Positions 336 to 64,000 of a DNA stretch of 64,000 nt are shown one piece after another. Position 1 is the stretch's first letter; the number at the start of each line of letters is the position of its first letter. The notes below the pieces were generated by a model. The model did not search any database, was not told the DNA's origin, and worked only from the letters and a program-made list of their open reading frames with translations. This DNA is from an uncultured Verrucomicrobiae bacterium (GTDB lineage Bacteria > Verrucomicrobiota > Verrucomicrobiia > Chthoniobacterales > UBA10450), in the NCBI GenBank assembly GCA_963726745.1, contig CAVSDR010000006.1:864001-928000 (forward strand). Direction: 5' to 3'. A program made the position numbers and the translations under genes.

Positions 336-2492
336 ATGGCCCATTCCGAAGAAGCTAAACTGCACTTTCTCGACTACTGGAGAGTCATCCGCGTCCGTTG
401 GGTGCTCATCCTCCTGGCCTTCTTCCTGGTCCTCCTCACGGCTGCGGTGGTGACCTATTTTCAGCCGCGCGAGTATCAGTCTTCCGTCTTCATCGAGGTC
501 CGCTCGACCGCGCAGAATCCACGCATTTTCTCGACCGGCGACCCGAACATGCCGATCCACGATCCGCAGCTTGCTCCAACCGTTTTCCAGGTCATCCAGC
601 GGACGGGCGTGCTTTATCCGGTGATCGAAGACCTCCGCCTGCAGGACAAATGGGCCAAGGGCGGCTTCCGGCCCTCGCGCGAGCAGGCTTACCAGCGCCT
701 CCGCAGCAAGCTCAACGTCGATGAAGTGCGCAACACCGACCTTCTCCAAATCAGCGTCCTGAGCACCGATCCGCAGGAAGCCGCGGATATAGCCAACAAG
801 ATCGTGGCCGTCTACCAGGAGACGCGCGTTCAGGAAGAGAAGGAAATCCTTAATCGCGCCCTCGCGAGCATGAATGAGGAAGTCGGGAAGCAGCAGAAAA
901 AAGTCGACGACTCCGCTACGGAAGTCGCCCGTATCCGCGATCAGGAGGGCATCGTCGACCTGAACCCTGAAGGCACCGAGGACACGCAGACTCCGTTGAA
1001 TACCATCGTGCTCAAGCAAGGGGCGGAAGTGAACGACGCCGAGACCAAGGCCGCCAATCTGGTCAACCAACTCGAGCAAATCAAGAATGTCACCGGCGAC
1101 GACCTCATGCGGATGATGCCGACGTTGAATATCCAGGATCCGACGGTGCTCAAGATTCTCCCGGTCTACCAGGAAGCGGTCGCGCAGGAAGCACTGCTCT
1201 TGAACTCCGGGCTTGGGGAAAATCACCCGAAGGTCAAAGCCTTGCGCGCACAGAAAGACGTCTACACGAAGCAACTCGAAGGGCAGGTCGCGATCATCCG
1301 CAGCGCGCTCGAGAAGAACGTGCAGAGCGCGCAGTCTAATGTCGAAGAGCTTCGCAAGCGCCTGGAGGAAATCAATCAGAAGCAGCTGAGCAGCAAAAAC
1401 CTCAGCGCCACCTACACCCGCGCGAAGAACAATTACATCAAGGAGAAGCTCCTTCTCGATAGCGTCCGCGCCCGCGCACAGACCCAGACGATGGAACTCG
1501 CGATGCCGCGCATGGCCGTGAGCGTGAAGCAGGTCGCCGAGCCGGCGAGCTATCCTTCGCGGCCGCGGGTTTCGCTCAACCTCGCGCTCGGCGCGCTTGT
1601 TGGCCTCGTTGTCGGCCTCGGCCTCGCCTTCTTCATCGAGTATCTCGACACCAGCGTGAAGACGATGGAAGACGTCGAGAGCCTTCTCGGCGTGCCCGTG
1701 CTCGCGATCATTCCGAAGAACATCAAGCTCCTGCACAAAGAGGCGGGCGACACCCCGGATGCCGAGGCCTATCGCATCCTGCGCACGAACATTGAATTCA
1801 ACCGCAAGAACCCCGAGGCCAACGCCATCTCCATGGTCAGCGGCGGCCCGGGCGAAGGGAAATCCACCACGCTGGCTAATTTGGCTTTCACCTCCGCGCA
1901 GGGCGGCTACACCACTTTGATCGTCGACGCCGATCTTCGCCGTCCGGTGCAGCATTCCTTCTGGGATGTGAGCAACAAAGTTGGCCTAACGAACTATCTC
2001 ACCACCGACATCCCGCTGGAGGACGTGATCCTGCCGACGACGGTGGAGAATCTCTCCATCCTCCCCAGCGGCATCCTGCCGGCTGATGCTGTCGGCATCC
2101 TCAATTCTCAGCGCATGTCCGACATGATCGCGGAGTTGAAGACCCGTTACGACATCGTCTTCTTCGATTCCCCACCAATGCTCGGCGTGAGTGATGCCTC
2201 CGTGCTCGCGAGCGAAGTCGACCAGACGATCATGGTGGTGCAACATCGCCGCTTCCCGCGCGCTATGCTCAGCCGGGTGAAGCAAGCCGTGCTCGGCGTC
2301 GGTGGCACCGTTCTCGGTGTCGTCTTGAACAACGTCGACCTGAAGCACGACCAGAACTACTACTACTACACCAACTACTACGGCTACTACACGCCGCGCG
2401 AGGGCGAGAAGAAGGGCGGCCGCGAATCGCGCCGCACCGCTTCGACTACGACCACTGCGAGCAATGGTTACTCCGATGGAGAGGAATACTAA
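336..2492 (+). CDS. wzc: Polysaccharide co-polymerase / BY tyrosine kinase (Wzc family)
   Basis: Two TM segments flanking coiled coil; Walker A GPGEGKST; DADLRRP; DSPP; C-terminal Tyr cluster YYYYTNYYGYY. Confidence 0.92.
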   Translation: MAHSEEAKLHFLDYWRVIRVRWVLILLAFFLVLLTAAVVTYFQPREYQSSVFIEVRSTAQNPRIFSTGDPNMPIHDPQLAPTVFQVIQRTGVLYPVIEDLRLQDKWAKGGFRPSREQAYQRLRSKLNVDEVRNTDLLQISVLSTDPQEAADIANKIVAVYQETRVQEEKEILNRALASMNEEVGKQQKKVDDSATEVARIRDQEGIVDLNPEGTEDTQTPLNTIVLKQGAEVNDAETKAANLVNQLEQIKNVTGDDLMRMMPTLNIQDPTVLKILPVYQEAVAQEALLLNSGLGENHPKVKALRAQKDVYTKQLEGQVAIIRSALEKNVQSAQSNVEELRKRLEEINQKQLSSKNLSATYTRAKNNYIKEKLLLDSVRARAQTQTMELAMPRMAVSVKQVAEPASYPSRPRVSLNLALGALVGLVVGLGLAFFIEYLDTSVKTMEDVESLLGVPVLAIIPKNIKLLHKEAGDTPDAEAYRILRTNIEFNRKNPEANAISMVSGGPGEGKSTTLANLAFTSAQGGYTTLIVDADLRRPVQHSFWDVSNKVGLTNYLTTDIPLEDVILPTTVENLSILPSGILPADAVGILNSQRMSDMIAELKTRYDIVFFDSPPMLGVSDASVLASEVDQTIMVVQHRRFPRAMLSRVKQAVLGVGGTVLGVVLNNVDLKHDQNYYYYTNYYGYYTPREGEKKGGRESRRTASTTTTASNGYSDGEEY

Positions 2493-2493
2493 A

Positions 2494-3045
2494 ATGCGCC
2501 GCCTCGCTTCCGTCTTTTTCCTGCTGCTGGCTTTCGCCTTTACCGCGCGCGGTCAGGCGACTTTGCGCGTCGGCGATCCGATCGACTTGAAGGTGGCCGG
2601 CGTGCCCGCCGAGGAACAGGCCCAGCTAAACAACACCTACACCGTCGACAGCACCGGCTCGGTCAACTTGCCTTACATCAACAAAGTTCGCGCCGAAGGT
2701 CTCACGCCATCGCAGCTCGCCTCCGCGATCGAGCAGACCTATCGCTCGAATAAAATTTACACCAACCCCACGATCACCGCGGTCATGCAGCCAACCGCTC
2801 GTTTCGTGAATGTCGGTGGCGCTGTGCGCAATCCTTCCCGCGTTCCCTTCACCGAAGACATCACCCTTCTTGCCGCGATCAATGCCGCCGGCGGCTTCAA
2901 TGATTTCGCCGATCAGCGGAAAGTCCGCGTCCTGCGCGGGAGCAAAGTGCAGGTCTTCGACGTGCGCGAATCCCGTCGCGATCCGTCCAAGGATCTCAAG
3001 CTCCAGCCGGGCGATCGCGTGGAAGTCCCGCAGAGCTTCTTCTAA
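2494..3045 (+). CDS. Polysaccharide export protein (Poly_export + SLBB, Wza-like)
   Basis: Signal peptide; LRVGD...VDSTGSVNLPYI; GGAVRNP; AINAAGGF; LQPGD motifs. Confidence 0.88.
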   Translation: MRRLASVFFLLLAFAFTARGQATLRVGDPIDLKVAGVPAEEQAQLNNTYTVDSTGSVNLPYINKVRAEGLTPSQLASAIEQTYRSNKIYTNPTITAVMQPTARFVNVGGAVRNPSRVPFTEDITLLAAINAAGGFNDFADQRKVRVLRGSKVQVFDVRESRRDPSKDLKLQPGDRVEVPQSFF

Positions 3046-3058
3046 ACGAAGTCGCTGT

Positions 3059-5822: not shown

Positions 5823-5828
5823 CACTCG

Positions 5829-8800
5829 TTAGTGGAAGTCGTGCGACTCGCTCCCGCGGAAGCTGGCCTGCGCCAGCGGCTCGATCGTGCGCGCCTTGAT
5901 CAGGATGACGTTGTCGTTGTTCTGCACCTCGCCGGTGATCCGCAGGAACGGCTCCTCCGTGATTAGCAGCCGCAGCTTCTCGAAGAGGTCGGGCGTCACG
6001 ATCGCATTCGAGACGCCGGTCTCGTCTTCCAGGCTGATGAAGACAAAACCTTTCGCCGTCCCGGGCCGCTGGCGGCAAATAACGTTGCCGGCGATCTCCA
6101 CCGTCGCTCCATGCCGGGCCTGGATCAGATCGCTGGCGCGCCAGGCGTTCGGCAGGTCTGCCCGGAGCAATTTCATCGGGTGCGGACCAGTCGTTAGGCT
6201 CATGGTTTCGTAATCCGCCTGCACCCGTTCCGGCATGGTCATGGGCAGGAGCGGCGATTCTTCCTTCTTTGCGCGGCCGCGCCGGCGCTGGGCGAAGAGC
6301 GGCGCCGGCGGTTGCTCCTCCACTTCCCAGAGCGCGTTCCGGCGATGGTCGCTAAAGCAGTTGAGCGCGCCGACGAGCGCGAGCGTGCGCAAGGTCTCCT
6401 GCGGCAGCGGAAGTCGCTGTCTAAAATCCTCCAGCGACTCAAAGGCCGCGGTTTCCCGTTGCCGCACGAGGGCGACCACGTGCTCCTCTCGCAGGCCGCG
6501 GACCACGCAAAAGCCCAGGCGAATCGTCTCGTGGTCGATCACCTGGCAGCCCCAGCCAGAATCGCGCACGGAAACAGGCAGCACTTTCAACCCGTGCCGG
6601 ACGGCGTCTTTCACGATCGTGGCCGGCGAGTAAAAACCCATCGGCTGGTTGTTGATCAGGCTGGCGTAAAACTCCGCCGCGCGATGCACCTTCAAGTAGG
6701 CGCTGCCGTAGGCGAGGATGGCGAAGCTGATCGCGTGCGACTCCGGGAAGCCGTAAAGCGCAAAGGAGGTGATCGATTGCAGGATGCGCTCGATCGCTTC
6801 CGGCGCGACCTGGTTCCGCTCCATCGCGCGCCGCAGCTTGACGCTGACTTTGTTCATCCGCTCCTGCGAACGGTGGAAGCTGAGCGCGCGCCGCAGCTCC
6901 TCTGCTTCCTCGCCGGAGAAGTTCGCCATGATCATCGCGATCTTAAGCAACTGCTCCTGGAAGAGCGGCACGCCGAGGGTGCGGCCGAGGATCGGCTTGA
7001 GGCGGTCGTCAAAATAAGTCACCGGCTCCTTGCCCGCGCGCCGCGCGAGATACGGATGGACCATGTCGCCCTGGATCGGGCCCGGTCGAATAATCGCGAC
7101 CTCGATCACGACATCGTAGAAACACTTCGGCTTCATCCGCGGGAGCGTGGCCATCTGCGCGCGGCTCTCGATCTGGAAAACGCCGATCGTGTCCGCCTGC
7201 TGCATGATCGCGAACGTCTGCGCGTCATCCTTCGGGATGTGCGCCAGGTCGAGCGGCCGCCCGCGTTCCCGGCAAAGCTCGAAGGCATCCTGCATCACCG
7301 CCATCATCCCCAGGCCTAACAAGTCCACCTTCACGATCCCGAGGTCCTCGCAGTCGTCCTTGTCCCACTGCGCGACCACGCGCCCGGGCATGGAGGCATT
7401 CTCCAGCGGGACGAACGAACTCAGCTTTCCCTGGCAGATGATCATCCCGCCGGAGTGCTGCCCGAGATGGCGCGGCAGGCCGTAGATCGATTCGTAGAGC
7501 CGGACGAACGCCGGCATCCGCGGATGCGCCTTCGGCAAACCGGCCTGCTCGATCTGCGCGGTCAGGTCGAGGGTGTGCGGGAAGTCGCCATTCGCGAAAA
7601 GGTGCGAGAAACGCTCGAGGATGCCGGGCGAAAAATTGAGCGCTTTCCCGATCTCGCGCGCTGCGCTCCGGCCGCGGTAGCTGATCACGTTCGCGGTCAT
7701 GGCCGCGCCGTGTTTCCCATAGCGCCGGTAAACTTCCTGGATCACGCGCTCGCGCCGGTCGCCACTCGGCAGATCGAGATCGATGTCCGGCCAGCCTTTG
7801 CGGCTCTCGTTCAGGAAACGCTCGAAGACGAGGTGATTCGAGACCGGATCGACCGGGGTAATCCCGAGGCAATAGCAGACCGCGCTGTTGGCCGCGCTCC
7901 CGCGCCCCTGGACCATGATCCCCTGCTCGCGACAGAAATTGACGATGTCCCAGACGATCAGGAAATAGCCGGAGAACCCGAGCTTCGCGATCAGCGCGAG
8001 CTCTTCGTTGATCTTCTCCTTCACCGCGCGGCTCATCGCCTCGTAACGCTGCTGCGCGCCGAAAAGCGTGATCGTGCGCAGGAAGGAATCCATGTCGTGC
8101 CCCGCCGGCACGGGGAACTGCGGGAACTCGTAGCCGATGTTCTCGAGCGAGAATTGCAGCCGGTCGGCTAAACGCTCGGTGTTCGTGATCGCCTCCGGCA
8201 AATCGCGAAAGAGCGCACGCATTTCCCGGTCGCTCTTCAGATGGCGCTCGGCATTTTGCGTGAGCAAGGTGCCGGCCGCGTCGAGGTGCGTATGCGCGCG
8301 CATGCAGGTGAAAACATCCAGCGCCTCGCGTCCGCGCGCGGTGGCGTATTGCACGCCATTGGTGGCGAGGAGCGGGAGGCGGAACTGCCCCGCGAGATCG
8401 CGGAGCGCGCGGTTTCTCCGCTCTTCGCCGCGCACGAAATGCCGCTGCAGCTCCACGTAGACATTCTCCTGGCCTAACGAGTCGATGAGCCGCTGGGCGT
8501 AGCCTGCCGAGCGCTTGGGGAGCGCAGGCTGCCAGCCTGCTGGCCGCGGCAGCTTGCCGCGACCGCGGAGTGGTAGCCCCCACCGAGAGCGCTGGTTTAT
8601 CTTCCCGTGTTTCCGGCAGGCTGCCGGAAACGGCAGGCTGGCAGCCTGCGCTCCCCGGATTCCCCAGCAAGGCCACCAATCCGTCGGCAAATTCCCGGAG
8701 CTCGCTCCAGCGCACCGCGCACTCGCCTTTCACCTCGCTCCGAAGATGCGCCTCGGTCAGGAGTGAACAGAGATTCCCGTAGCCGGCCTTGGATTTCACC

Positions 8801-9033: not shown

Positions 9034-9049
9034 GATCTCGCGCCGCTCG

Positions 9050-9970
9050 TTAGTCGTAGATCCCGTCGACTTGCCACTGCCCGGCTTCCTCGTGCACCCG
9101 TGCGAGCGCCCCGCTGGCCAGTTGCACATCCCACTCCGCGCGCGCCCAGGCAGCCGTGTCCCACCATTGACCGGAAGCGTGATATGGCCCCTTCCGCTCG
9201 ACCACTTCGCGCAATGCCGGCGCCGCGCCGTGACGAAAACGCCGGAGCACTGGGCCGCTCCCATCTTGCTGGCTAATTTCCCGCGCCTCCGGCAACTCCC
9301 AGCGAAACGCCTCCATCCGGAAAACATCCGGCCGATGCGTATCCTCCAGCACCGGCGTGCCGACGCGTTCCGCGCCGAGCAATCCGGCGAGCCGCGCGAG
9401 CGTCTCCGAAAGCTGCGCTGGGTCGCGCAGCGCGCTTTCGAAAAGGCTGAACTGCTGCCGCACCGGCCGCGTGGGCTGCGCTTCCAGCGCGACCGCGACG
9501 ATCGCCGACTCCGAGGTGAAACCCTCGAGGTGCGCCTGGAGCATGCGGAAGAGCGACTCCTCATCGTTGCTCGGCTGCGGGATTTTAAACAGCCGCTCGT
9601 AGCTCGTCCGATCGTCAAAAAGGAGCCGCAGTTTCAACTCCGCGACCACGAGATATTGCGCGCCCAGCCGCAGCGCGAATTGCTGCAGGAAACGCCGGAG
9701 CATGAAGAGCAGCGGCTCGCTCGTGGAGACCTCGTGCTCGAACTCGAAGCTCTCCGCGAAGACTTCCGGCGGCTCCACCAGGCGGAGCAAACGCGTCGCC
9801 TGGCCGCGGGCCCGTTCCCACATCCGCACCGCCTCCGCGCCCAGGCGTGCGCTCACCTCGGCCCGCGGCAGCCGGGCAAAATCGCCTAACGAATGGAGGC
9901 CCCACTGGTGCAGGAGCGCGATCACCCGGCGAATTTCCGCCGCCCGTTCCGCCTCCTGCTTCGCCGTCAT
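9050..9970 (-). CDS. imuB: ImuB / Y-family polymerase-like protein, C-terminal half (thumb, little finger, tail)
   Basis: LHQWGLHSLGDFARLPRAEVSARLG; HRPD; GPYHASGQWW; WQVDGIYD; immediately upstream of dnaE2. Confidence 0.85.
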   Translation of the reverse strand: MTAKQEAERAAEIRRVIALLHQWGLHSLGDFARLPRAEVSARLGAEAVRMWERARGQATRLLRLVEPPEVFAESFEFEHEVSTSEPLLFMLRRFLQQFALRLGAQYLVVAELKLRLLFDDRTSYERLFKIPQPSNDEESLFRMLQAHLEGFTSESAIVAVALEAQPTRPVRQQFSLFESALRDPAQLSETLARLAGLLGAERVGTPVLEDTHRPDVFRMEAFRWELPEAREISQQDGSGPVLRRFRHGAAPALREVVERKGPYHASGQWWDTAAWARAEWDVQLASGALARVHEEAGQWQVDGIYD

Positions 9971-11928: not shown

Positions 11929-11947
11929 ATAGGCAGGGGGTTGGATA

Positions 11948-11961
11948 TGTTCAAGTGATCG
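11948..11961 (-). promoter_or_regulatory. LexA (SOS) box variant upstream of repeat protein-imuB_C-dnaE2
   Basis: TGTTC-AAGT-GATCG; 14 bp (TCACTTGAACATAT on - strand) identical to the imuA box. Confidence 0.65.
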
Positions 11962-15237: not shown

Positions 15238-15734
15238 ATCCGCTGGCAAACGACTGGCCGATCAAACACCGCGCAGAAGTTTGCGCAGCCACCGGCCGCC
15301 CGTTCGAGCCGGGCGAACTATTTTACACGCTCCTTTTCCGCGAAGGTGCGGGCTATCGCCGCGAAGACTTGAGCGAGGAAGGCTGGGCCGCGCGCAACGA
15401 AAACATCCGCCCGTTTTCGTTTTGGAAAACCCGCTACGAGCCGCCACCCGCGGTCCCGCCGGAACCGCTGGCCAAAGAGAACGCCGAGGAGCTGCTCCGT
15501 CGCCTCCTGGGCGAGAGCGCGCAGCCGAATGCCTGCTACGTGCTCGCGGCCATGCTCGAGCGGAAACGCATCCTGAAGCCGATCAAGACCGAGCCGGCGG
15601 ACAACGGCCGCCGGGTGCTCATTTACGAACACGCCAAAACCGGCGAAGTCTTCCTGGTCCCGGATGTGGAGCTTAAGCTCGACGAGCTCGAAGCGGTCCA
15701 GAGCGAGGTCGCGCAACTCATGCAGGCGGTCTAA
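15234..15734 (+). CDS. Hypothetical protein
   Basis: Overlaps lptF/G stop (ATGA); coding-like composition; YVLAAMLERKRILK. Confidence 0.7.
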   Translation: MNPLANDWPIKHRAEVCAATGRPFEPGELFYTLLFREGAGYRREDLSEEGWAARNENIRPFSFWKTRYEPPPAVPPEPLAKENAEELLRRLLGESAQPNACYVLAAMLERKRILKPIKTEPADNGRRVLIYEHAKTGEVFLVPDVELKLDELEAVQSEVAQLMQAV

Positions 15735-15743
15735 CGAATCGAA

Positions 15744-17700: not shown

Positions 17701-17706
17701 CCAGCA

Positions 17707-35255: not shown

Positions 35256-35329
35256 GATTGATTGGGTTGGTTGGTTGCTTCGTTAGGTTATCGAACGCCA
35301 CCCGCCAAGTGCGTTCGTCTGCGGGCAAC

Positions 35330-44393: not shown

Positions 44394-44432
44394 CCGACAA
44401 ATCGCTCGTTAGGCGACGGGGCTAGATAGCGG

Positions 44433-48817: not shown

Positions 48818-49804
48818 GTGAGAAAACTGGTCCATCGTCCGCGGCGTCTGCGGCGCTCCCCGGCGGTGCGCAATCTCGTCCGCGAGACCCGCCTGAGCGC
48901 GCACGATTTCATCCTGCCGCTCTTCATCAGCGAGAAGATCGAGGGCCGCCGCGAGATCGGGAGCATGCCGGGTGTCTTCCAGCACTCGTTAGCCGACGCG
49001 GTCGAGGAAGCGCGCCGGGCGGAAGCGCTCGGGCTCCAGGCGGTGTTGCTCTTCGGCATTCCCGCGGAGAAAGACGAGCAGGCCAGCGGCGCTTACGCGG
49101 AGAACGGCGTCGTGCAGCAGGCCGTGCGCGCGATCAAAGCGCAATGCCCGGAGCTCGTTGTGATCACCGACGTTTGCCTGTGCGAATACATGAGCCACGG
49201 GCATTGCGGCGTGACCCGGCAGGATGGCGCGCACTTTCACGTTTTGAATGACGAGAGCGTCGAGTTGCTGGCTAAAACCGCGCTCTCGCACGCGCAAGCC
49301 GGAGCGGATTTCGTCGCGCCGAGCGACATGATGGATGGCCGCATCGGCGCGGTGCGCGAGATGCTCGACGCGCACGGTTTCACCGAGACCGGGATCATCA
49401 GTTACGCGGTGAAATTTGCCAGCGCCTTCTACGGCCCGTTCCGGGAAGCGGCAGAGAGTCCGCCGCAATTCGGCGACCGCCGCAGTTACCAGATGGACCC
49501 GGCCAACGGGGCGGAAGCCTTGCGCGAAGCCGCGCTCGACGTGGAGGAAGGAGCCGACATTTTGATGGTGAAGCCGGCGCTGCCTTATCTCGACATTCTC
49601 TGGCGCGTGCGCGAGCGCTTTGCCCAGCCGACCGCGGTCTATCACGTGAGCGGCGAATTCTCGATGGTGAAAGCAGGCGCGGCCGCGGGTTACTTCGACG
49701 AACGCGCCGCCGTGCTCGAGATCATGACTTCGCTCAAGCGCGCCGGCGCGGACCTGATCGTGACCTATTGGGCGAAGGAGCTCGCGGAATGGACGCGAGC
49801 CTAA
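48818..49804 (+). CDS. hemB: Porphobilinogen synthase
   Basis: RPRRLR; DVCLCEYMSHGHCG; APSDMMDGR; FYGPFREA; MVKPA. Confidence 0.97.
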   Translation: MRKLVHRPRRLRRSPAVRNLVRETRLSAHDFILPLFISEKIEGRREIGSMPGVFQHSLADAVEEARRAEALGLQAVLLFGIPAEKDEQASGAYAENGVVQQAVRAIKAQCPELVVITDVCLCEYMSHGHCGVTRQDGAHFHVLNDESVELLAKTALSHAQAGADFVAPSDMMDGRIGAVREMLDAHGFTETGIISYAVKFASAFYGPFREAAESPPQFGDRRSYQMDPANGAEALREAALDVEEGADILMVKPALPYLDILWRVRERFAQPTAVYHVSGEFSMVKAGAAAGYFDERAAVLEIMTSLKRAGADLIVTYWAKELAEWTRA

Positions 49805-50520
49805 CGAGTCGTCGCGGCGAGACCGAGGCGCACCGGCGCTTGAAGAAGCGCGCGGTTCTCTGGGCCCAGGCGCAGGGCTTCACCGCCTGCGCCGTCGAGG
49901 TAAGCCTGCCGCAATGCCGTTACCGCGCTGATGTCGCCGGCTACCGGGCGCGCGGGAGCGAACCGGCCGCGACTGCGATCTTCGAATGCAAGCAGGTGCT
50001 CTCGGATCTCCGCCGCGACAATTGCCAAACGCAGGCGGCGCGTGCGCGGCTCGAAACGGTCCACCGCCGGCGCGAAGTGCTGGAGCGCAACCTGCGGGTG
50101 CACTACCCCACCTTGCGCGCGGGCGAGACGCTTTTCCCGGAGTTCGACGCGCACGATTTCAATGCCATCCGGCATGCGAGCTACACGCGGGTGATGCGGG
50201 AGCTGGGCGCGCTCCAGAAGAAGCTGCGCGGCGGGACGAAGTTCGAGTGCCTCACGCGCTACCGGAGCGCGAATCTTTTCTTTCTGGTCCTGCCTAACGA
50301 GTTGTATCGCGCGGCGGAAGTGCCGCCCGGCTGGGGCGTCCTCCTGGAAATAGACAGCAACCTCGCGCTCCGCCAAAAGCCGCTCTGGCACGAGAGCGGG
50401 CCGGAAATTCAGCTCCGGGTGCTGCAACGAATCGCGGTCGCAGGCACGCGGCACCTCAACCGCCAGCTCGAGCTGAGCTTCGACGAAGTCCTCGCAGAGC
50501 GCGCGCGTCGGTCCTCTTGA
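49789..50520 (+). CDS. PD-(D/E)XK-like protein resembling the MmcB family, with internal helical insertion
   Basis: EV...RADV...IFECKQ..SDLRRD and NLFFLVLP...EVPPGWGVL. Confidence 0.6.
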   Translation: MDASLTSRRGETEAHRRLKKRAVLWAQAQGFTACAVEVSLPQCRYRADVAGYRARGSEPAATAIFECKQVLSDLRRDNCQTQAARARLETVHRRREVLERNLRVHYPTLRAGETLFPEFDAHDFNAIRHASYTRVMRELGALQKKLRGGTKFECLTRYRSANLFFLVLPNELYRAAEVPPGWGVLLEIDSNLALRQKPLWHESGPEIQLRVLQRIAVAGTRHLNRQLELSFDEVLAERARRSS

Positions 50521-50564: not shown

Positions 50565-52100
50565 TTAGGCGATTTTAGACAGCAGATTGTGCCCGGTCAT
50601 TTCCGCGGGCTGCGGCAGGCCGAGGAGGAACAGCAGCGTGGGCGCGACATCGGCAAGGATGCCATCCTCAACTCGGAAACTGGCGGCGTCCTGGGCCACG
50701 TAGAGCAAGTGCACCAGGTTGGTGGTGTGCGCAGTATTCGGCGAGCCGTCGGCATTCCGCATCTGCTCGCAATTCCCATGATCGGCGGTGAGCAAGGCCT
50801 TGCCGCCTAACGAGAGCAAGCGCTCCACGATCCGGCCGACGCAGGCGTCGATCGTCTCGACCGCGCGCACACCCGCTTCGACCACGCCGGTGTGGCCGAC
50901 CATGTCGGGGTTGGCAAAGTTGAGGATGATCAGATCGAATTGATCCAGGTTCGCGAGCACGGTCTCGGTGACTTCCAAGGCGCTCATTTGCGGCCGGAGA
51001 TCGTAGGTCGCGACTTTAGGCGACGGGATGATCTTGCGCTCTTCGCCGGGGAACGAGCGCTCCACCCCGCCGTTAAAGAAGTAGGTTACGTGCGGGTATT
51101 TCTCGGTCTCGGCGATGCGCAACTGCGTCCGGCCTGCGGCACTAACGACTTCGCCAAGGATGTGCTCGAGGACTGCGGGGGCGAAGACGTAAGGCGCCCC
51201 GTATTTCACATCGTACTGCGTGAGGGTGACGTAATGCACCCGCGGATGGACCTCGCGGTCAAAGCCGTCGAAGTCGTCGTCGAGGAAGGCATTCGAAAGC
51301 TGGCGCGCGCGATCCGCACGGAAGTTAAAGAAGAGGACGACATCGCCATCGCGCACACGTTGTTCGTTAGGCCGCTCGAAGAGGAGCGCGGGCAGGAATT
51401 CATCGGTCTGGCCGCGCTCGTATTCCGCGCTGACTGCGGCCGAGGGCGAGAGCTCGGTGAATTCTCCGCGCCCGAGCACGATCGCATCCCAGGCGAGCTT
51501 GGTGCGTTCCCAGCGGCGGTCGCGATCCATCGCAAAGTAACGCCCGACCACCGTCGCGATGCGCGCGCCGCTGTCCTTTAACTCCGCGCTGCAACTTGCG
51601 AGAAACCCAGCCCCGCCGGTGGGCGAGGTGTCGCGGCCGTCAGTAAAAGCGTGCACCATGATGTCGGCTACGCCGGCAGCTTGCGCGACCTTGGCCAACG
51701 CCACGAGATGCGCGTAGTGGCTGTGGACGCCACCATCGGAAACGAGCCCGAGCAGATGGAGTCGCGCGCCGCGCGCCTGCGCGAAGGCCTCGCGCAGGAC
51801 GGTGTTTTGCGCGAGCTCGCCGTCCGCGATCGCCTGGTTGATCCGCGTGAGGTCTTGATAAACGATTCGCCCCGCGCCGAGATTCAGGTGGCCGACTTCC
51901 GAGTTACCCATCTGTCCGGGAGGCAGGCCGACATCAAGCCCGCTGGCGCTCAAACGGCCGGCCGGATAGCGCTGGTAAAGCGCGTCGTGCACCGGGGTGC
52001 GCGCGAGCAGGGTGGCGTCGCCATTGGCTTCGCATTGCGCGCGGCCGCCGGGGTTGATCCCCCAGCCATCGCGGATGATCAACAAGACGGGTGCGGGCAT
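50565..52100 (-). CDS. gpmI: 2,3-bisphosphoglycerate-independent phosphoglycerate mutase
   Basis: DGWG; MGNSEVGH; DGRD; GRYFAMDRD; AETEKYPHVT; NPDMVGHTG; TADHGN. Confidence 0.97.
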   Translation of the reverse strand: MPAPVLLIIRDGWGINPGGRAQCEANGDATLLARTPVHDALYQRYPAGRLSASGLDVGLPPGQMGNSEVGHLNLGAGRIVYQDLTRINQAIADGELAQNTVLREAFAQARGARLHLLGLVSDGGVHSHYAHLVALAKVAQAAGVADIMVHAFTDGRDTSPTGGAGFLASCSAELKDSGARIATVVGRYFAMDRDRRWERTKLAWDAIVLGRGEFTELSPSAAVSAEYERGQTDEFLPALLFERPNEQRVRDGDVVLFFNFRADRARQLSNAFLDDDFDGFDREVHPRVHYVTLTQYDVKYGAPYVFAPAVLEHILGEVVSAAGRTQLRIAETEKYPHVTYFFNGGVERSFPGEERKIIPSPKVATYDLRPQMSALEVTETVLANLDQFDLIILNFANPDMVGHTGVVEAGVRAVETIDACVGRIVERLLSLGGKALLTADHGNCEQMRNADGSPNTAHTTNLVHLLYVAQDAASFRVEDGILADVAPTLLFLLGLPQPAEMTGHNLLSKIA

Positions 52101-59720: not shown

Positions 59721-60037
59721 TAGTTTCTCCATTGGTTTGGTTAGGTTTGGGCGTGAGGAATACGGAAGTAAGCGAAACGTGACAAGGCTTTTTTTTACTT
59801 TTTTCAAAAATCTTTGAACGCCCGGACGGGGCGCGCTGTCTCCGAAAAGCCGCCGTCGCTCCCGATTGCCGGGTTTCCTCGGTGCGCCCCACCCCGCATG
59901 GGAACGGTCTAACGAGCCCTGCGGCCGCGGCGCGACGCTGTCCCGACGGACGATGTTGCTGGCTAATTTGCCTCCGCCCTCGGCCACTGCGCGGTGCGCC
60001 GAATTGCGGTTTCTCCGGAGCAGATATAAATGCGGGG

Positions 60038-60643
60038 ATGTTTACCGGCCTGGTCGAGGAAGTGGGACGCGTGCTCTGGATTCGCGCGACGGACCGCGGC
60101 ACGCAGCTGCAGCTGACGGCGCCCGCGATTTCCCAAACCGTGCGCAAGGGCGACAGCATCTCGGTGAACGGCTGCTGCCTCACAGTCAAGGCGCATCGCG
60201 GGGAAGAGCTCACCTTCGATTTGCTCGAGGAAACGCTGGAGCGAACGAACCTTCGCGCGCTCCGCCGCGAAAGCGGGGTTAATCTCGAGCGTGCCCTTGC
60301 GGCCGGCGCGCCTCTGGGCGGCCACTTCGTCCAGGGGCACATCGATTGCGCGGCCCGCGTCGTCGCCTTCGAGGAAATCGGCACCGACCACCGCCTCGAG
60401 GTCGAGCTGCCGGACGACTTCGCACACTACGTCGCCTTCAAGGGCTCGATTGCGATCAACGGCGTGAGCCTGACCGTGGCCGAGGTGCTCTCCCAAAGCC
60501 TGGCCGTCTGGATCATTCCGCACACCCGCCGGGCGACGAATTTTTCCTCGTTAGGCGCGGGCGACCAGGTGAACCTGGAGTTCGACTTGCTGGCAAAATA
60601 CGTCGAGCGCATGCTCGCGCGGCAGACGCCGCAGATGCCCTAA
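60038..60643 (+). CDS. ribE: Riboflavin synthase (alpha chain)
   Basis: MFTGLVEE; GDSISVNGCCLT; VNLERAL; GGHFVQGHID; IIPHT. Confidence 0.96.
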   Translation: MFTGLVEEVGRVLWIRATDRGTQLQLTAPAISQTVRKGDSISVNGCCLTVKAHRGEELTFDLLEETLERTNLRALRRESGVNLERALAAGAPLGGHFVQGHIDCAARVVAFEEIGTDHRLEVELPDDFAHYVAFKGSIAINGVSLTVAEVLSQSLAVWIIPHTRRATNFSSLGAGDQVNLEFDLLAKYVERMLARQTPQMP

Positions 60644-60648
60644 CGACA

Positions 60649-62040
60649 CTACTTCGCGCCCAGCCCGAAGACGACCGTCGGGACAGTGCGCGCAAGAATC
60701 TTGAAGTCGAGCCCTAACGACCACTGGTCGATGTACTCGAGGTCGAGCTTCACCCAATCGCGAAAATCGCGCACCTCATTCCGGCCGCGCACCTGCCAGA
60801 GACAGGTCAGACCGGGCTTCACGCTCAGGCGACGGCGTTGCGCGGTGTTCTCGAATTTCTCCACCTCGTAGAGCGGGAGCGGCCGGGGCCCGACGAGGCT
60901 CATGTCGCCCAGGAGCACGTTGAGCAATTGCGGCGTTTCATCGAAGCTCGTGCGCCGCAGCCAGCGGCCAAAGGGCGTCACGCGGGGGTCGTTCTCCACT
61001 TTAAAAACCGGGCCGCTCATCTGATTAAACGGCAGGAGATCGGCCCGACGCTGCTCGGCATCGTCCGACATCGAGCGGAATTTATACATCGTAAACGGCT
61101 TCCCATGCTTGCCCGCGCGCTGTTGGCGGAAAATAGCCGACCCGCTGGAGGTGAGGCGCACGATCAAGGCCACCACCAGCATCGGCAACGCCAGCACCAG
61201 CAGCGCGGTCAATGCGCCCAGCCAATCGATCACGCGCTTGAGCAAGAGCGCCCACGAGACCTCCGGGGTCGACCGAAAGACGAGCATCGGCCGCCCGGCA
61301 AAAGCGTCGAAGTCCGGCTTCGCGATCGAGGTTTGAATGAAGTCCGCCACCAGCCAGGCGGGCACGCCTTCGACTTCGCAAGCGCCGATCGCCTGCTCCA
61401 CGCGATTGAGCTGGCTGTGGCCGGCGGCAAAGATCACCCGCGTGACCGAGTGACGATGGAGCGCCTCCACCAGATCGGAGAGCGGCTGCTGCTCGATGTC
61501 GATCCGGTCGACGATGTGGAGCAACATCCGCTGCTCGTCAGTGAAGGTCCGCTCGAGCGCGGCGATGTCCTGCGGCACCCCGGCCAGGAGAATGCGCTCC
61601 CGCATTTCCCCGCGCCGCGCGCGACGGCGGACGACCGCGATGATGATCCGTTCCTTGACCATCAGGACGACCGTCGAGAGCGCGATGAAGAGCAGCGGCA
61701 GGGTGCGATTGATCAAGGGCAGGCGCAGGAAAATCACGCAGGCGCTGGCTACAATGCTCAGGTAAAGCATCGCCTGCATGATCTGCATGAACGAACGCCA
61801 GCGACTCTTCGTTAGGGGCGTTTGGTAGAAACCCTGGAGATCGAGCAGGATCGGTCCGAAGGCCATCACCACCACGATGAGCCAGTGGTAGTTTTTGAAT
61901 TGGTCGATCGTCTGCTCCAGCCCGAACCATTGGGTCGCGTAAAGCCGGAGCACGTAGGAGACGTACAGCGTCAGCGCGAGCAGGAACGAATCCATGATCT
62001 GCTGGAGCTGGGTATTTATTTCCTGTCGACGGGGAAGCAT
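60649..62040 (-). CDS. Priming polyprenyl-phosphate sugar-1-phosphate transferase (WcaJ/WbaP family)
   Basis: KRVID; YKFRSM; DPRVT; DETPQLLNVLLGDMSLVGPRP; KPGLT; DLEYI. Confidence 0.93.
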   Translation of the reverse strand: MLPRRQEINTQLQQIMDSFLLALTLYVSYVLRLYATQWFGLEQTIDQFKNYHWLIVVVMAFGPILLDLQGFYQTPLTKSRWRSFMQIMQAMLYLSIVASACVIFLRLPLINRTLPLLFIALSTVVLMVKERIIIAVVRRRARRGEMRERILLAGVPQDIAALERTFTDEQRMLLHIVDRIDIEQQPLSDLVEALHRHSVTRVIFAAGHSQLNRVEQAIGACEVEGVPAWLVADFIQTSIAKPDFDAFAGRPMLVFRSTPEVSWALLLKRVIDWLGALTALLVLALPMLVVALIVRLTSSGSAIFRQQRAGKHGKPFTMYKFRSMSDDAEQRRADLLPFNQMSGPVFKVENDPRVTPFGRWLRRTSFDETPQLLNVLLGDMSLVGPRPLPLYEVEKFENTAQRRRLSVKPGLTCLWQVRGRNEVRDFRDWVKLDLEYIDQWSLGLDFKILARTVPTVVFGLGAK

Positions 62041-62802: not shown

Positions 62803-62804
62803 AA

Positions 62805-63452
62805 GTGGCTGCCAACGAGAAAACCGAGACCATCACCCTGCCGGAAACCGTGCCCGTGATGCCTCTCCCCGGCGCCCTCCTTTTCCCGCACGCCCTCCTG
62901 CCGCTCTACATCTTCGAGCAGCGCTACCGCGAGATGCTGGAATACGCCCTCGCCGCCGACCGGATGTTTTGCGTCGCCCTCATTTCTCCGAAGCGCGCGG
63001 AATGGCGCTCCACCGGCGACTTCCATCAGATCGCAACCGTCGGTCTCATCCGCGCCTGTGTCGGCCGGCCCGACGGCACCTCAAATCTCATCCTCCAAGG
63101 CCTGCAACGCGTCCGCTTCACCGGCTTCCCACAGTCGAAACCCTTCCCCATTGCCGAGATCGAGCCGCTCCCGTCCGTCCCGGCCGATCCGCTGGTCGAG
63201 GGCCAGGCGCTGGCGGCGCAGGTGCTCGATTTTTATGAGAAATTCAAGGGCGACGGCCGGCAGTTTCCCGAGAAGGTCGATTCCTACCTCTCGGACCTGG
63301 GCGATCCCGAGATGCTGGCCGACCTCATGGCCGCCACCTTTGTGGGCGATCCCCGGCGCCGGCAGCAACTCCTCGAGGAGCTCGATGTCAAGGAACGCCT
63401 CCGCCTGGTCATCCGTTTCCTGCGCGACGAGACCGGCAGCGCTGCGGCCTAA
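62805..63452 (+). CDS. Stand-alone Lon N-terminal substrate-binding domain protein
   Basis: PVMPL...LFP...PLYIFEQRYREM; DGTSNLILQG; QQLLEE...ERL; no AAA or protease domain. Confidence 0.88.
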   Translation: MAANEKTETITLPETVPVMPLPGALLFPHALLPLYIFEQRYREMLEYALAADRMFCVALISPKRAEWRSTGDFHQIATVGLIRACVGRPDGTSNLILQGLQRVRFTGFPQSKPFPIAEIEPLPSVPADPLVEGQALAAQVLDFYEKFKGDGRQFPEKVDSYLSDLGDPEMLADLMAATFVGDPRRRQQLLEELDVKERLRLVIRFLRDETGSAAA

Positions 63453-64000
63453 CGAGTCGTGGGCGCCGGCGCGATCCGGGCGTATTCCTCCATCAGGTAG
63501 CGATCGGTCATGCCCGCGATGTAATCGCACACCGTGCGATGAAAGCCCTCGCCCTCGATCCGTCGAATCGCGCCCTCGCCTAACGAGTCTGGCGATTCGA
63601 GGTAGGCGGCAAAAACCGCGCGTAACATCTCGCAGGCCTGCTGATTCACCTCGGCCACGCGCGGATGGTAGTAAACGTTCTTGTACAGGAAACGCCGGAG
63701 CTCGCGGTTCGCCTGGAGCAATCCCTCGCTGTAGCGAATCAGCGGCCGCTCGCGTTGCCGCACCTCATCCGCGCTCTGCACCCCGGCAGCGGCGATGCCT
63801 TCCGCGCTCGAGCCGATCACATCCCGCACCTGCACGTCGATGATGTCGCGAATGATCAGCTTGTGCAGCTCCGGCTCGCGCACCGAGGGATAACGGCTCA
63901 GGACAGGCTCCCGGCTTTGCCGCCAGACGGCCACTTCTTCGAGCTGGTCGGAAGAAAGAATCGCGAAGTCGACCGCATCGTCGAGGTCGTGACTGTAGTA
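63449..64000 (-). CDS. dgt: dGTP triphosphohydrolase, C-terminal part; runs off window end
   Basis: YYSHDLDDA; FLYKNVY; CDYIAGMTDRY. Confidence 0.9.
   Translation of the reverse strand, partial: YYSHDLDDAVDFAILSSDQLEEVAVWRQSREPVLSRYPSVREPELHKLIIRDIIDVQVRDVIGSSAEGIAAAGVQSADEVRQRERPLIRYSEGLLQANRELRRFLYKNVYYHPRVAEVNQQACEMLRAVFAAYLESPDSLGEGAIRRIEGEGFHRTVCDYIAGMTDRYLMEEYARIAPAPTTR

What the first reader, a model, noticed from the sequence alone, without database searches (positions are those of the whole stretch)
1984..63586. Highly iterated non-palindromic motif A, (G)CCTAACGA, embedded throughout coding DNA
Seen: CTAACGA at about 1986, 8474, 9886, 15731, 21260, 23546, 24650, 27714, 32580, 34352, 35389, 42380, 45946, 49801, 50294, 50807, 51142, 59909, 60640, 60714, 63449 and 63580. 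Its complement TCGTTAG is at about 5826, 6191, 9047, 22166, 28532, 35280, 36985, 38109, 38886, 40260, 41993, 43107, 44115, 44406, 48986, 51364, 60548 and 61809. That is about 40 copies (22 + / 18 -), about 30 of them extending to CCTAACGA. A simple base-composition estimate at about 65% GC gives roughly 4 for the 7-mer and 1-2 for the 8-mer. Inside genes it is carried by otherwise rare Leu codons (GGC CTA ACG in wzc; TCG TTA GGC in dnaE2, imuB_C, KS, lptD, aminopeptidase, ribE) and occurs in several frames, so it is not a peptide motif. Established: this pattern is shown by DNA uptake sequences (Neisseria DUS, Pasteurellaceae USS) and cyanobacterial HIP1, whereas Chi and KOPS are strand-polarised. 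Inference: an uncharacterised chromosome-wide DNA signal (uptake tag, nucleoid-protein site, or methylation/repair-driven motif). I do not recognise it as a described motif.
Basis: partly seen in the sequence, partly recalled or inferred. Interest (0 to 1): 0.9.

Follow-up and report, generated by a model that had tools for sequence, protein, structure and literature searches.

The report
Uptake-signal-like DNA word in soil Verrucomicrobia
A 9-11 base DNA word, GCCTAACGA(GT), is written about 1,300 times through the genes of this uncultured soil bacterium and its whole family, much like the self-recognition DNA uptake tags of Neisseria and Haemophilus, but what reads it has not been tested.

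Summary
CTAACGA occurs 41 times in the window against 3.2 expected, and CCTAACGA 30 times against 0.87.

Genome-wide the full form is G-C-CTAAC-G-A-G-t. The 9-mer occurs 1,312 times in 3.41 Mb against about 20 expected. It is on all 7 contigs, equally on both strands, without replichore polarity.

The excess survives a protein-preserving codon shuffle: 928 copies in ORFs against about 22. It uses all four stop-free frames and raises the frequency of its own tripeptides. Copies arise by point mutation with turnover, avoid close neighbours and are missing from accessory islands.

The word is enriched in most of 80 genomes from 30 genera of one Chthoniobacterales family. It is not enriched in the 250 sampled Verrucomicrobiota genomes other than G000, 249 of them outside the family.

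Two further unrelated words behave the same way: B in G000 and one relative, C in a subclade.

Best reading: a DNA-uptake-signal analogue, confidence about 0.5. Earlier notes of this scan reported the same word in other genomes of this lineage. My literature searches found no description.

The parts
1986..1992 (+). motif A copy, full 9-mer form; inside Wzc-like ORF 336-2492 (+), sense
5826..5832 (-). motif A copy, 7-mer only; its TAA is the stop codon of the DNA pol III alpha (dnaE2-like) ORF 5829-8690 (-)
6191..6197 (-). motif A copy, 9-mer form; inside dnaE2-like ORF, sense
8474..8480 (+). motif A copy, 9-mer form; inside dnaE2-like ORF, antisense
9047..9053 (-). motif A copy, 7-mer only; its TAA is the stop codon of ORF 9050-9970 (-)
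9886..9892 (+). motif A copy, 9-mer form; ORF 9050-9970 (-), antisense
15731..15737 (+). motif A copy, 7-mer only; its TAA is the stop codon of ORF 15234-15734 (+)
21260..21266 (+). motif A copy, 7-mer only; outside my ORF calls
22166..22172 (-). motif A copy, 9-mer form; outside my ORF calls
23546..23552 (+). motif A copy, 9-mer form; GlgE-like ORF 23526-25514 (-), antisense
24650..24656 (+). motif A copy, 9-mer form; GlgE-like ORF, antisense
27714..27720 (+). motif A copy, 9-mer form; ORF 27514-28395 (-), antisense
28532..28538 (-). motif A copy, 9-mer form; ORF 28399-29535 (-), sense
32580..32586 (+). motif A copy, 9-mer form; ORF 32117-33148 (+), sense
34352..34358 (+). motif A copy, 9-mer form; DegT-type aminotransferase ORF 33440-34723 (+), sense; exact in G062, absent in G013 at the orthologous place
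35280..35286 (-). motif A copy, 8-mer form; its complement supplies the TAG stop of ORF 34810-35286 (+)
35389..35395 (+). motif A copy, 9-mer form; outside my ORF calls
36985..36991 (-). motif A copy, 8-mer form; ketosynthase ORF 35995-37200 (+), antisense; exact in G013, G062 and G081
38109..38115 (-). motif A copy, 9-mer form; ORF 37197-38258 (+), antisense; exact in G013 and G081
38886..38892 (-). motif A copy, 7-mer only; ORF 38340-40595 (+), antisense
40260..40266 (-). motif A copy, 9-mer form; ORF 38340-40595 (+), antisense; absent in four relatives at the orthologous place
41993..41999 (-). motif A copy, 9-mer form; UDP-glucose dehydrogenase ORF 40567-42102 (+), antisense
42380..42386 (+). 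motif A copy, 7-mer only; ORF 42099-42467 (-), antisense
43107..43113 (-). motif A copy, 9-mer form; RsmB/F-like ORF 42644-43228 (+), antisense
44115..44121 (-). motif A copy, 9-mer form; M29 aminopeptidase ORF 43272-44393 (+), antisense; 7-mer exact in four relatives
44406..44412 (-). motif A copy, 9-mer form; outside my ORF calls
45946..45952 (+). motif A copy, 7-mer only; TPR ORF 45399-47852 (-), antisense
48986..48992 (-). motif A copy, 7-mer only; HemB ORF 48818-49804 (+), antisense
49801..49807 (+). motif A copy, 9-mer form; its TAA is the stop codon of the HemB ORF 48818-49804 (+)
50294..50300 (+). motif A copy, 9-mer form; ORF 49768-50520 (+), sense; exact in four relatives
50807..50813 (+). 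motif A copy, 9-mer form; iPGM ORF 50565-52172 (-), antisense; exact in three relatives
51142..51148 (+). motif A copy, 7-mer only; iPGM ORF, antisense
51364..51370 (-). motif A copy, 9-mer form; iPGM ORF, sense; 7-mer exact in three relatives
59909..59915 (+). motif A copy, 7-mer only; TonB-dependent receptor ORF 56610-59987 (-), antisense
60548..60554 (-). motif A copy, 9-mer form; outside my ORF calls
60640..60646 (+). motif A copy, 8-mer form; outside my ORF calls
60714..60720 (+). motif A copy, 8-mer form; sugar transferase ORF 60649-62040 (-), antisense
61809..61815 (-). motif A copy, 8-mer form; sugar transferase ORF, sense
63449..63455 (+). motif A copy, 9-mer form; outside my ORF calls
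63580..63586 (+). motif A copy, 9-mer form; outside my ORF calls

Best explanation
GCCTAACGA(G)(t) is a lineage-specific genomic word kept at high copy number by a force acting on the DNA itself, not on RNA or protein. Copies arise in place by point mutation. Once perfect they are kept longer than neighbouring sequence. They accumulate in all native DNA but not in recently acquired islands. The mechanism I think most likely is a transfer-biased molecular drive of the uptake-sequence type. On this view the cell's type IV pilus and competence machinery takes up DNA carrying the word preferentially. ComEC and DprA then bring it in for recombination, so alleles that gain the word spread and near-matches are pulled into perfect matches. 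Shown here: the abundance, the DNA-level nature, strand symmetry, origin by point mutation, excess conservation, the spacing deficit, absence from accessory islands, the family-wide distribution, and the presence of competence and pilus genes.
For: (1) Abundance. The 9-mer occurs 1,312 times against about 20 expected, the 10-mer 820 against 6 (order-3 Markov).
(2) DNA level. In ORFs there are 928 copies against about 22 in 30 protein-preserving codon shuffles. All four frames without a stop are used (418, 217, 200 and 89 copies); the two frames that would read TAA or TAG have none.
(3) Proteome effect of the size reported for uptake sequences. SLG occurs 714 times against about 440 expected, PNE 227 against about 94, PND 135 against 73-86. 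The abstract of PMC2817400 reports roughly doubled tripeptide frequencies for USS and DUS.
(4) Strand symmetry in every genome and no GC-skew polarity.
(5) Point-mutation origin with turnover and excess conservation. Exact conservation at orthologous places is 27 of 72 and 34 of 73, against 16% and 15% for other 7-mers. Flanks of the conserved copies are of ordinary identity. Most aligned orthologues have no gap at the site.
(6) Near-matches at core positions total 571 against 932 expected in the codon-shuffle null, while tolerated positions are enriched 4-8 fold.
(7) Only 108 gaps are shorter than 200 bp, against 235.5 +/- 13 in a simulation. This fits diminishing returns per DNA fragment.
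(8) The largest motif-free stretches (10-25 kb, G+C 0.58-0.65 against a genome of 0.64) hold an O-antigen-type polysaccharide cluster, exosortase genes, hypothetical genes and giant secreted proteins. The same abstract reports that genes without homologues in relatives lack uptake sequences.
(9) Family-level conservation, as for USS in Pasteurellaceae and DUS in Neisseriaceae. By my hand tally of the table, 62 of 80 genomes from 30 genera have at least 3 times the reversed-word control. Among the other 250 genomes sampled across the phylum (249 of them outside the family) all but the one family member have 0-18 copies, below the control in nearly all.
(10) The machinery is present: ComEC, DprA, a small ComEA-like HHH protein, 3 secretins, 19 prepilin-type N-terminal domains and 10 PilB/PilT-family ATPase hits.
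Against: No uptake, binding or transformation data exist, and no member of the family is cultured as far as the record titles show.

The competence genes do not discriminate. ComEC is found in 78 of 81 family genomes, including those with no excess of the word (G035, G049, G058, G063), and in 10 of 14 control genomes.

No protein reaches the Pfam threshold for the ComP DUS-receptor domain. The best hits are 21.9 and 19.1 bits against a cut-off of 27.3.

The abstract of a 2025 preprint reports about half of DUS/USS copies in terminators. Here there are almost no inverted pairs: 10 opposite-strand pairs within 60 bp among 2,018 gaps.

DUS and USS systems are described with one word per genome and closely related dialects. 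This family has at least three unrelated words, and two can be abundant in the same genome: A with B in G000, and A with C in genus g35. That needs several readers, or a mechanism other than one receptor.

Intergenic DNA is not enriched: 253 of 1,312 copies (19%) lie in about 19% non-ORF DNA by my crude ORF calls, and a further 135 straddle ORF ends.
Confidence: 0.5

Rival explanations
1. The word is the binding site of an abundant sequence-specific chromosomal protein (nucleoid organisation, repair or replication-linked marking). Weak selection on each site, acting in cis, keeps it.
For: The word is asymmetric and 9-11 bp long with a sharply defined core. Copies avoid each other at short range and are conserved beyond background. 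These bacteria may have very large populations, which would make weak per-site selection effective (inference).
Against: Density ranges from none to one copy per 740 bp among genera of one family. Whole genera have lost the word or replaced it with an unrelated one, which is hard to square with a conserved housekeeping role. Accessory islands of 10-25 kb do without it. Turnover is high: 70 of 97 and 82 of 116 relative-specific sites are not in G000. No candidate protein was identified.
Confidence: 0.2
2. This is a HIP1-like signature tied to DNA methylation or sequence-specific repair. A methyltransferase or a mismatch-processing enzyme recognises the word, and biased repair or methylation-dependent selection enriches it. 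It may still serve DNA exchange, as is now proposed for HIP1.
For: Several unrelated words in lineage-specific combinations resemble the patchy distribution of methyltransferase specificities. Near-matches are depleted, as expected if they are converted. G000 encodes one N4/N6 methyltransferase, one C5 methyltransferase and about three type I-like N6 methyltransferase matches. The abstract and section 14 of PMC13756078 link HIP1 to the methylases DmtA and DmtC and to methylation-dependent transformation.
Against: A contiguous asymmetric specificity of 9-11 bp is longer than that of the methyltransferase classes I know (recalled, not tested). Simple mutation or repair bias can only convert existing near-matches, roughly 930 expected one-off sites in ORFs, so it cannot by itself give a 28-130 fold excess. 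Dam-family genes were found in 16 of 81 family genomes and do not track word C, which contains GATC: the richest genomes (G052, G074, G034, G104) have none. G000 itself has no Dam-family match.
Confidence: 0.15
3. The drive acts on the donor side. A DNA-packaging, secretion or conjugation-like translocase (gene-transfer-agent terminase, or an FtsK/TraB-type motor) starts preferentially at the word. Alleles carrying it are therefore exported and spread more often.
For: It predicts the same population-genetic signature as an uptake bias: all the drive evidence. Several words per genome are easier to explain with several mobile translocases. This is inference; no direct evidence.
Against: No such machinery was looked for or linked to the word. 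The known translocase words (KOPS, SRS) are strand-polarised, and this one is not.
Confidence: 0.07
4. It is a Chi-like or KOPS-like polar signal for RecBCD/AddAB or FtsK.
For: It is a short asymmetric over-represented word that is depleted in islands.
Against: No polarity. In regions of constant negative GC skew the two strands carry 616 and 551 copies of the 8-mer by my tally (53% against 47%). Correlations between motif skew and GC skew across contigs range from -0.52 to +0.23. The enrichment (67-134 fold) and length exceed those of known Chi sites (recalled).
Confidence: 0.03
5. It is part of a dispersed repeat or mobile element (REP, MITE), or an assembly or sequencing artefact.
For: High copy number.
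Against: Flanks return to background composition within about 3-5 bases. 70% of copies lie inside ORFs in several frames. Most orthologous places aligned have no insertion or deletion at the site. The same word is in 80 independently assembled genomes and in public MAG records from several studies.
Confidence: 0.01

Closest known systems
Uptake signal sequence (USS) of Pasteurellaceae (9-base core with flanking preferences; receptor predicted to be the minor pilin ComN/PpdA, abstract of PMC12616744)
   Same: An asymmetric 9-11 base word with graded flanks. The copy number is similar: 1,312 in 3.4 Mb here, against 1,471 and 765 in the table headings of PMC2817400. Most copies are inside genes: 70% here, against 65% and 49% there. 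The encoded tripeptides are raised about 1.6-2.4 fold. Genes without relatives lack it. It is conserved across a whole family. Both strands carry equal numbers. Copies arise by point mutation.
   Different: A different phylum and an unrelated sequence. No demonstrated competence or uptake. No inverted pairs in terminators. Other unrelated words (B, C) coexist with it or replace it, rather than one-to-few-base dialects.
DNA uptake sequence (DUS) of Neisseriaceae and its dialects, read by the minor pilin ComP (abstracts of PMC3630211 and PMC3868556)
   Same: A family-wide self tag with a strict short core (CTG there, CTAAC-A here) and tolerant outer positions. Lineage-specific variants follow the phylogeny. 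Type IV pilus genes are present.
   Different: No protein passes the ComP_DUS Pfam threshold. DUS copies are mostly intergenic (34.5% in ORFs) and often paired in terminators; here they are mostly genic and unpaired. The variants here are unrelated words, not dialects.
HIP1 (GCGATCGC) of cyanobacteria (abstract and section 14 of PMC13756078)
   Same: A hyper-abundant word inside genes in any frame, conserved at the DNA level across a large clade with exceptions. Its function was long unknown, and it is now proposed to be a DNA-uptake recognition sequence.
   Different: HIP1 is a palindrome and a known methylase site (DmtA, DmtC). Motif A is asymmetric, no methylase is linked to it, and it spans a family rather than a phylum.
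Chi and KOPS/AIMS polar words (recalled knowledge)
   Same: Short asymmetric over-represented words that are rarer in islands.
   Different: Those are strongly biased to one replication strand and only a few fold enriched. Motif A shows no polarity and a 67-134 fold excess.

Membership tests
DNA uptake sequences (DUS/USS, 'DUES') | Short asymmetric word present in hundreds to thousands of copies, far above composition-based expectation | tested here: met
   1,312 copies of the 9-mer against about 20 expected; 41 against 3.2 in the window
DNA uptake sequences (DUS/USS, 'DUES') | Excess exists at the DNA level: all usable frames, both orientations, and it survives protein-preserving shuffles | tested here: met
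DNA uptake sequences (DUS/USS, 'DUES') | Raises the frequency of the tripeptides it encodes (about 2 fold, abstract of PMC2817400) | tested here: met
   SLG 714 against about 440, PNE 227 against about 94, PND 135 against 73-86
DNA uptake sequences (DUS/USS, 'DUES') | Lacking from recently acquired or accessory genes | tested here: met
   The 7 largest motif-free stretches examined (14-25 kb) hold polysaccharide, exosortase, giant secreted-protein and hypothetical genes; G+C is below the genome mean in most. Only the deserts were examined, not all accessory genes.
DNA uptake sequences (DUS/USS, 'DUES') | Conserved across a bacterial family, with lineage-specific variants | tested here: met
   Enriched in most of 80 genomes from 30 genera and not outside the family. 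The variants B and C are unrelated words rather than dialects.
DNA uptake sequences (DUS/USS, 'DUES') | Many copies form inverted pairs in transcription terminators (about half, abstract of preprint 10.1101/2025.10.24.684340) | tested here: not met
   10 opposite-strand pairs within 60 bp among 2,018 gaps
DNA uptake sequences (DUS/USS, 'DUES') | DNA carrying the word is taken up or transforms preferentially | not testable with these tools
   No culture and no assay; needs bench work
DNA uptake sequences (DUS/USS, 'DUES') | A specific receptor (ComP in Neisseriaceae; ComN/PpdA predicted in Pasteurellaceae) | tested here: inconclusive
   19 prepilin-type N-terminal domains. ComP_DUS Pfam domain only sub-threshold, 21.9 and 19.1 bits against 27.3. 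No ComN test was run.
DNA uptake sequences (DUS/USS, 'DUES') | Competence machinery encoded (ComEC, ComEA, DprA, type IV pilus, secretin) | tested here: met
   Not discriminating, because these genes are also present in genomes poor in the word and in most control genomes.
HIP1-type highly iterated palindromes | Palindromic word | tested here: not met
   The word and its complement differ
HIP1-type highly iterated palindromes | Cognate DNA methyltransferases recognise the word | not testable with these tools
   Methyltransferase genes exist but their specificities are unknown. Dam-family genes do not track word C.
Chi / KOPS polar words | Strong bias to one replication strand | tested here: not met
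   the strands are near equal within regions of constant GC skew
REP / MITE dispersed repeats | Longer conserved unit, mainly intergenic, inserted as a block | tested here: not met
   Flanks at background within 3-5 bases; 70% inside ORFs; most orthologous places aligned have no gap at the site

The most novel reading that the evidence does not exclude
A whole family of uncultured, abundant soil Verrucomicrobiota runs a self-DNA tagging system of the uptake-sequence kind. It would be the first outside Proteobacteria apart from the disputed HIP1. It also uses several unrelated tags at once. Word A is older and family-wide. Word C arose in one subclade, where A is mostly thinner. Word B arose recently in two species. 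This implies either several co-existing or succeeding sequence-specific DNA readers in one cell, or a new transfer-bias mechanism on the donor side.
Probability: 0.4. Interest if true: 0.9.

Novelty: new variant of a known kind. Interest (0 to 1): 0.8.

Why it matters
Sequence-specific DNA uptake is established only in two proteobacterial families of animal-associated bacteria. A word with the same genomic signature in a dominant, uncultured soil lineage would mean that self-biased gene exchange is part of soil bacterial population biology.

It also gives a handle on natural transformation in a phylum where my searches found none described.

Word B, present in only 2 of the 34 genus genomes searched, is the sharpest marker. 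The words may also be useful in practice as markers for binning and for tracing DNA of this family in metagenomes, and as elements to add to DNA in attempts at genetic manipulation.

Tried and rejected
Replichore or strand polarity: none.

Inverted-repeat or terminator pairing: essentially none.

Spatial coupling of words A and B: the distance histogram is flat.

Correlation of ComEC presence with density of the word: none. ComEC was found in 78 of 81 genomes, including the poor ones.

Correlation of Dam-family methyltransferase with word C (which contains GATC): none. Found in 16 of 81 genomes and lacking in the richest.

A replacement word in G002 (same genus, motif A near control): the enriched words in a 254-kb sample have long conserved flanks and strand bias (30 against 4), so they belong to longer repeats. 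G049 (331-kb sample): no dominant word.

ComP_DUS Pfam domain in G000: sub-threshold only. The two ORFs are ordinary prepilin-type proteins, and I did not pursue them by structure.

Simple mutation bias as the sole cause: rejected, because the pool of one-off precursors is far too small.

The protein used for the public-genome scan was one I had taken for dnaE2. Pfam shows it is a TonB-dependent receptor.

The single-gene iPGM tree is weakly resolved: 14 of 25 inner branches are below 80 and only 4 are starred. No outgroup matched, so it is rooted at the midpoint only.

Literature: 6 searches found no paper treating this word, or any uptake sequence, in Verrucomicrobiota. Papers outside the held library were not searched.

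Full report
**1. Observation.** CTAACGA and its complement occur 41 times in the 64-kb window (23 on +, 18 on -). A hundred dinucleotide-preserving shuffles give 3.21 on average and 8 at most. CCTAACGA occurs 30 times against 0.87 expected. The window is G000:C6:864001-928000 of a 3.41-Mb, 7-contig, 64% G+C assembly.

**2. The word itself.** Genome-wide there are 2,025 copies of the 7-mer, 1,034 on + and 991 on -, at 0.45-0.70 per kb on every contig.
- Aligned flanks show G (86%) and C (74%) before the core, and G (63%) then T or A after it. Composition is back at background 3-5 bases out.
- An unbiased k-mer scan puts this word first at every k from 7 to 11. CCTAACGA: 1,514 against 54. GCCTAACGA: 1,312 against 20. 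GCCTAACGAG: 820 against 6. GCCTAACGAGT: 321 against 0.6 (order-3 Markov).
- Single-base variants define a strict core, C-T-A-A-C-x-A. Variants there are at or below expectation. Tolerant positions are the first G (C next best), the second base, G8 (A is 39-fold enriched) and the last G (A and C about 50-fold).
- With a codon-preserving null inside ORFs, the 8-mer is seen 1,064 times against 37. Tolerated variants are enriched 3.7-8.2 fold. The 20 core one-off variants together are seen 571 times against 932 expected; several are at 0.1-0.25 of expectation.

**3. A DNA-level signal.** I called 2,575 ORFs crudely by length and third-position G+C; they cover 81% of the genome.
- Of the 1,312 9-mers, 924 lie wholly inside an ORF. 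They sit in all four frames that do not create a stop: antisense TCG-TTA-GGC 418, two sense frames 217 and 200, and a second antisense frame 89. The two frames that would read TAA or TAG hold none.
- 253 copies are intergenic and 135 straddle an ORF end.
- Thirty shuffles that permute synonymous codons within each gene give 14.7 sense and 6.9 antisense copies, against 420 and 508 observed. This null is conservative, because the word itself inflates the rare codons being shuffled.
- The word reshapes the proteome. Ser-Leu-Gly occurs 714 times against about 440 expected, and 419 of those are written with the word's codons. Pro-Asn-Glu occurs 227 times against about 94. The abstract of Findlay and Redfield (PMC2817400) reports about a doubling of the tripeptides specified by USS and DUS.
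- 262 of the 2,575 ORFs end in a stop codon that lies inside a copy of the word (157 TAA, 105 TAG). Five of these are in the window.

**4. Distribution along the chromosome.**
- There is no polarity. In 50-kb bins the two strands carry similar numbers whatever the GC skew. Correlations between motif skew and GC skew lie between -0.52 and +0.23.
- Spacing is close to exponential (mean 1,665 bp, median 1,120), but close neighbours are avoided. There are 108 gaps under 200 bp, against 235.5 +/- 13 (minimum 198) in 200 simulations that keep the count in each 20-kb bin.
- Opposite-strand pairs within 60 bp number only 10, so there is no terminator-hairpin arrangement.
- The 15 longest motif-free stretches are 10-25 kb, with G+C of 0.58-0.65. 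The seven I annotated hold an O-antigen-type polysaccharide cluster, exosortase and hypothetical genes, giant secreted proteins, and a mixed set including MetH and a sigma-54 regulator.

**5. Relatives.** Titles of public records related to a window protein name uncultured Chthoniobacterales, Verrucomicrobiota or 'Spartobacteria' MAGs from several studies, and many of those loci carry the word.
- All 18 sampled genomes of the genus have more copies of the 10-mer than of its reversed control: 51-1,404 against 11-57. Twelve genomes from 12 other families of the order have 0-14, below or at control.
- In 80 further genomes from 30 genera of the family, by my hand tally of the table, the 9-mer is at least 3 times the control in 62 and at least 10 times in 24. 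The maximum is 4,336 copies in 3.2 Mb (G073).
- G035, G049, G058 and G063 are at or below control.
- The phylum-wide scan covered 250 genomes other than G000. Apart from the family member G058 (60 copies), the other 249 have 0-18 copies, below the control in nearly all. The word is therefore naturally rare, and the ratios above understate the excess.
- Both strands are near equal in every genome.
- Rows for G001, G008, G035 and G113 come from unpublished genomes. No conclusion depends on them.

**6. Origin and turnover.** I aligned syntenic DNA of two species of the genus, about 73% identical: 107 kb from G013 and 155 kb from G062.
- G000's 7-mers are exactly conserved at 27 of 72 and 34 of 73 orthologous places. 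Other 7-mers in the same alignments are conserved at 16.0% and 14.9%.
- The flanks of conserved copies have ordinary identity (0.73). Sites overall sit in slightly less conserved surroundings: 0.705 against 0.72-0.73, with p = 0.16 and 0.03.
- Turnover is high. 70 of 97 and 82 of 116 sites in the relatives are not in G000.
- Where the word is missing, the orthologue usually differs at two or more positions, and most of the places aligned show no insertion or deletion.
- So copies arise by point mutation in place, and are either perfect or unrecognisable. This matches the depletion of near-matches.

**7. More than one word.**
- Word B. After masking A, G000 shows a second unrelated family, G-Y-Y-GGCTAA-W with a longer upstream preference. 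It has 958 copies, is also mostly genic, occurs in both orientations, and is not spatially coupled to A. Its commonest form is enriched only in G000 (427 copies) and G015 (106) among 34 genomes of the genus. It is absent from G013 and G062.
- Word C. G058 lacks A but carries a third short dispersed word, AAGATCGACA, on both strands with flanks at background. Across the family, C reaches 4,653 copies in 2.9 Mb (G052). It is abundant in genera g17, g20, g22, g24, g26, g31, g35, g38, g39, g41 and g42. It is at baseline (9-60) in g1, g15, g16, g25, g27, g28, g34 and others.
- Phylogeny. On a single-protein (iPGM) tree of 28 genomes, all genera rich in C fall in one 15-row clade (support 95/87). 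That clade also holds three C-poor genera (g21, g29, g36). Except in g35, A is thinner there: 19-178 per Mb, against 96-1,355 per Mb outside. The two genera lacking both words sit at the midpoint root. The tree is weakly resolved, so this is a sketch.
- In g35, A (354-1,803 copies) and C (2,673-4,653 copies) are both abundant in the same genomes.

**8. Mechanism.**
- Simple mutation or repair bias cannot make the word, because the precursor pool is too small.
- RNA or protein function is excluded by orientation and frame use.
- Chi-like and KOPS-like roles are excluded by the lack of polarity.
- Mobile repeats are excluded by the short unit and the in-place origin.
- What remains is a force favouring alleles that carry the word. 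This could be weak selection on thousands of sites in cis, or a transmission bias.
- The only described process I know that gives this full signature is biased DNA uptake followed by recombination. The signature is: thousands of symmetric genic copies, doubled tripeptides, absence from new genes, family-wide conservation, and depleted near-matches with tolerated outer positions.
- The genome has the parts needed: ComEC (849-aa open frame), DprA next to topA, a small ComEA-like protein, three secretins, 19 prepilin-type proteins and 10 PilB/PilT-family ATPase hits.
- That evidence is only permissive. ComEC is equally present in genomes poor in the word.
- Against a simple one-receptor model: the three unrelated and partly coexisting words, the lack of terminator pairs, and the absence of a ComP-type domain above threshold.
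- A methylation-linked mechanism like that discussed for HIP1 (PMC13756078) remains open, and so does a donor-side bias. Dam-family genes do not track word C.

**9. Comparison and novelty.** The closest systems are USS of Pasteurellaceae and DUS of Neisseriaceae, then HIP1.
- I read abstracts and outlines of PMC2817400, PMC3630211, PMC12616744 and preprint 10.1101/2025.10.24.684340. For PMC13756078 I read the abstract and section 14. PMC3868556 I saw only in a search listing.
- Six full-text searches found no paper on this word as a genomic signal, nor on uptake sequences in Verrucomicrobiota. Papers outside the held library, and supplements, were not examined.
- Earlier AI notes of this scan report the same 9-mer in several other genomes of soil Chthoniobacterales, with the same uptake-like reading. 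So the scan has found this before on other DNA. I reached the same reading before seeing them and tested it independently here.

**10. Verdict.** This is a real, strong, DNA-level signal. It is most likely an analogue of DNA uptake sequences in a new phylum (confidence 0.5), with features that do not fit the one-word, one-receptor model. The function is untested.

Noticed in passing
window, 28 sites: 1871, 3194, 4762, 5434, 8163, 9268, 11602, 12466, 13108, 17484, 17696, 18384, 19160, 20933, 27952, 34289, 34818, 37938, 43224, 46437, 48415, 49267, 52518, 53480, 54500, 55218, 59958, 62397: A second, unrelated hyper-abundant word (B), G-Y-Y-GGCTAA-W with an upstream A-rich preference. It has 958 copies genome-wide, is mostly genic, occurs in both orientations, and is not coupled to motif A. 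Its commonest form is enriched only in G000 and G015 among 34 genomes of the genus.
   Followed up: partly
other genomes of the family (for example G052, G034, G058; loci L156-L175): A third unrelated word (C), AAGATCGACA, reaches 4,653 copies in 2.9 Mb. It is confined to one subclade of the family and coexists with motif A in genus g35.
   Followed up: partly
window 5829-5831, 9050-9052, 15732-15734, 35284-35286, 49802-49804; genome-wide: About 10% of crude ORFs (262 of 2,575) end in a stop codon embedded in motif A: 157 of 786 TAA stops and 105 of 927 TAG stops.
   Followed up: partly
G034:C9:459447-460251: The ComEC gene of G034 (99% complete, rich in word C) matches in two pieces with a TGA between them. 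It may be broken or frameshifted.
   Followed up: no
G000:C3:432284-432952 (L223:1360-2028) and G000:C4:322993-324165 (L224:1234-2406): Two prepilin-type ORFs have weak, sub-threshold similarity to the ComP DUS-receptor domain (21.9 and 19.1 bits, cut-off 27.3). This is probably general pilin likeness. The second ORF's C-terminal half looks out of frame.
   Followed up: partly
G000:C6:623292-626130 (L155:7292-10130): Two large ORFs with weak prepilin N-terminal matches, one carrying DUF7305, lie about 2-3 kb from the dprA-topA pair.
   Followed up: no
window 5832-19165: A mutagenesis-type cassette: DNA pol III alpha (dnaE2-like) at 5832-8690, two upstream ORFs without Pfam hits (9053-11928), a DinG-like helicase (12034-14244) and a LexA (17754-18389).
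   Followed up: no
L026-L038 (G002): G002 (same genus, almost no motif A) has two moderately enriched words with long conserved flanks. One is strongly strand-biased (30 against 4 in 254 kb). They are parts of longer repeat elements, not short words.
   Followed up: partly
G021, G026 (other families of the order); G045:C2:862010-863599: The cofactor-independent phosphoglycerate mutase of the window found no match at E<=1e-30 in the two outgroup genomes searched. G045 has a second copy with a TAG inside.
   Followed up: no
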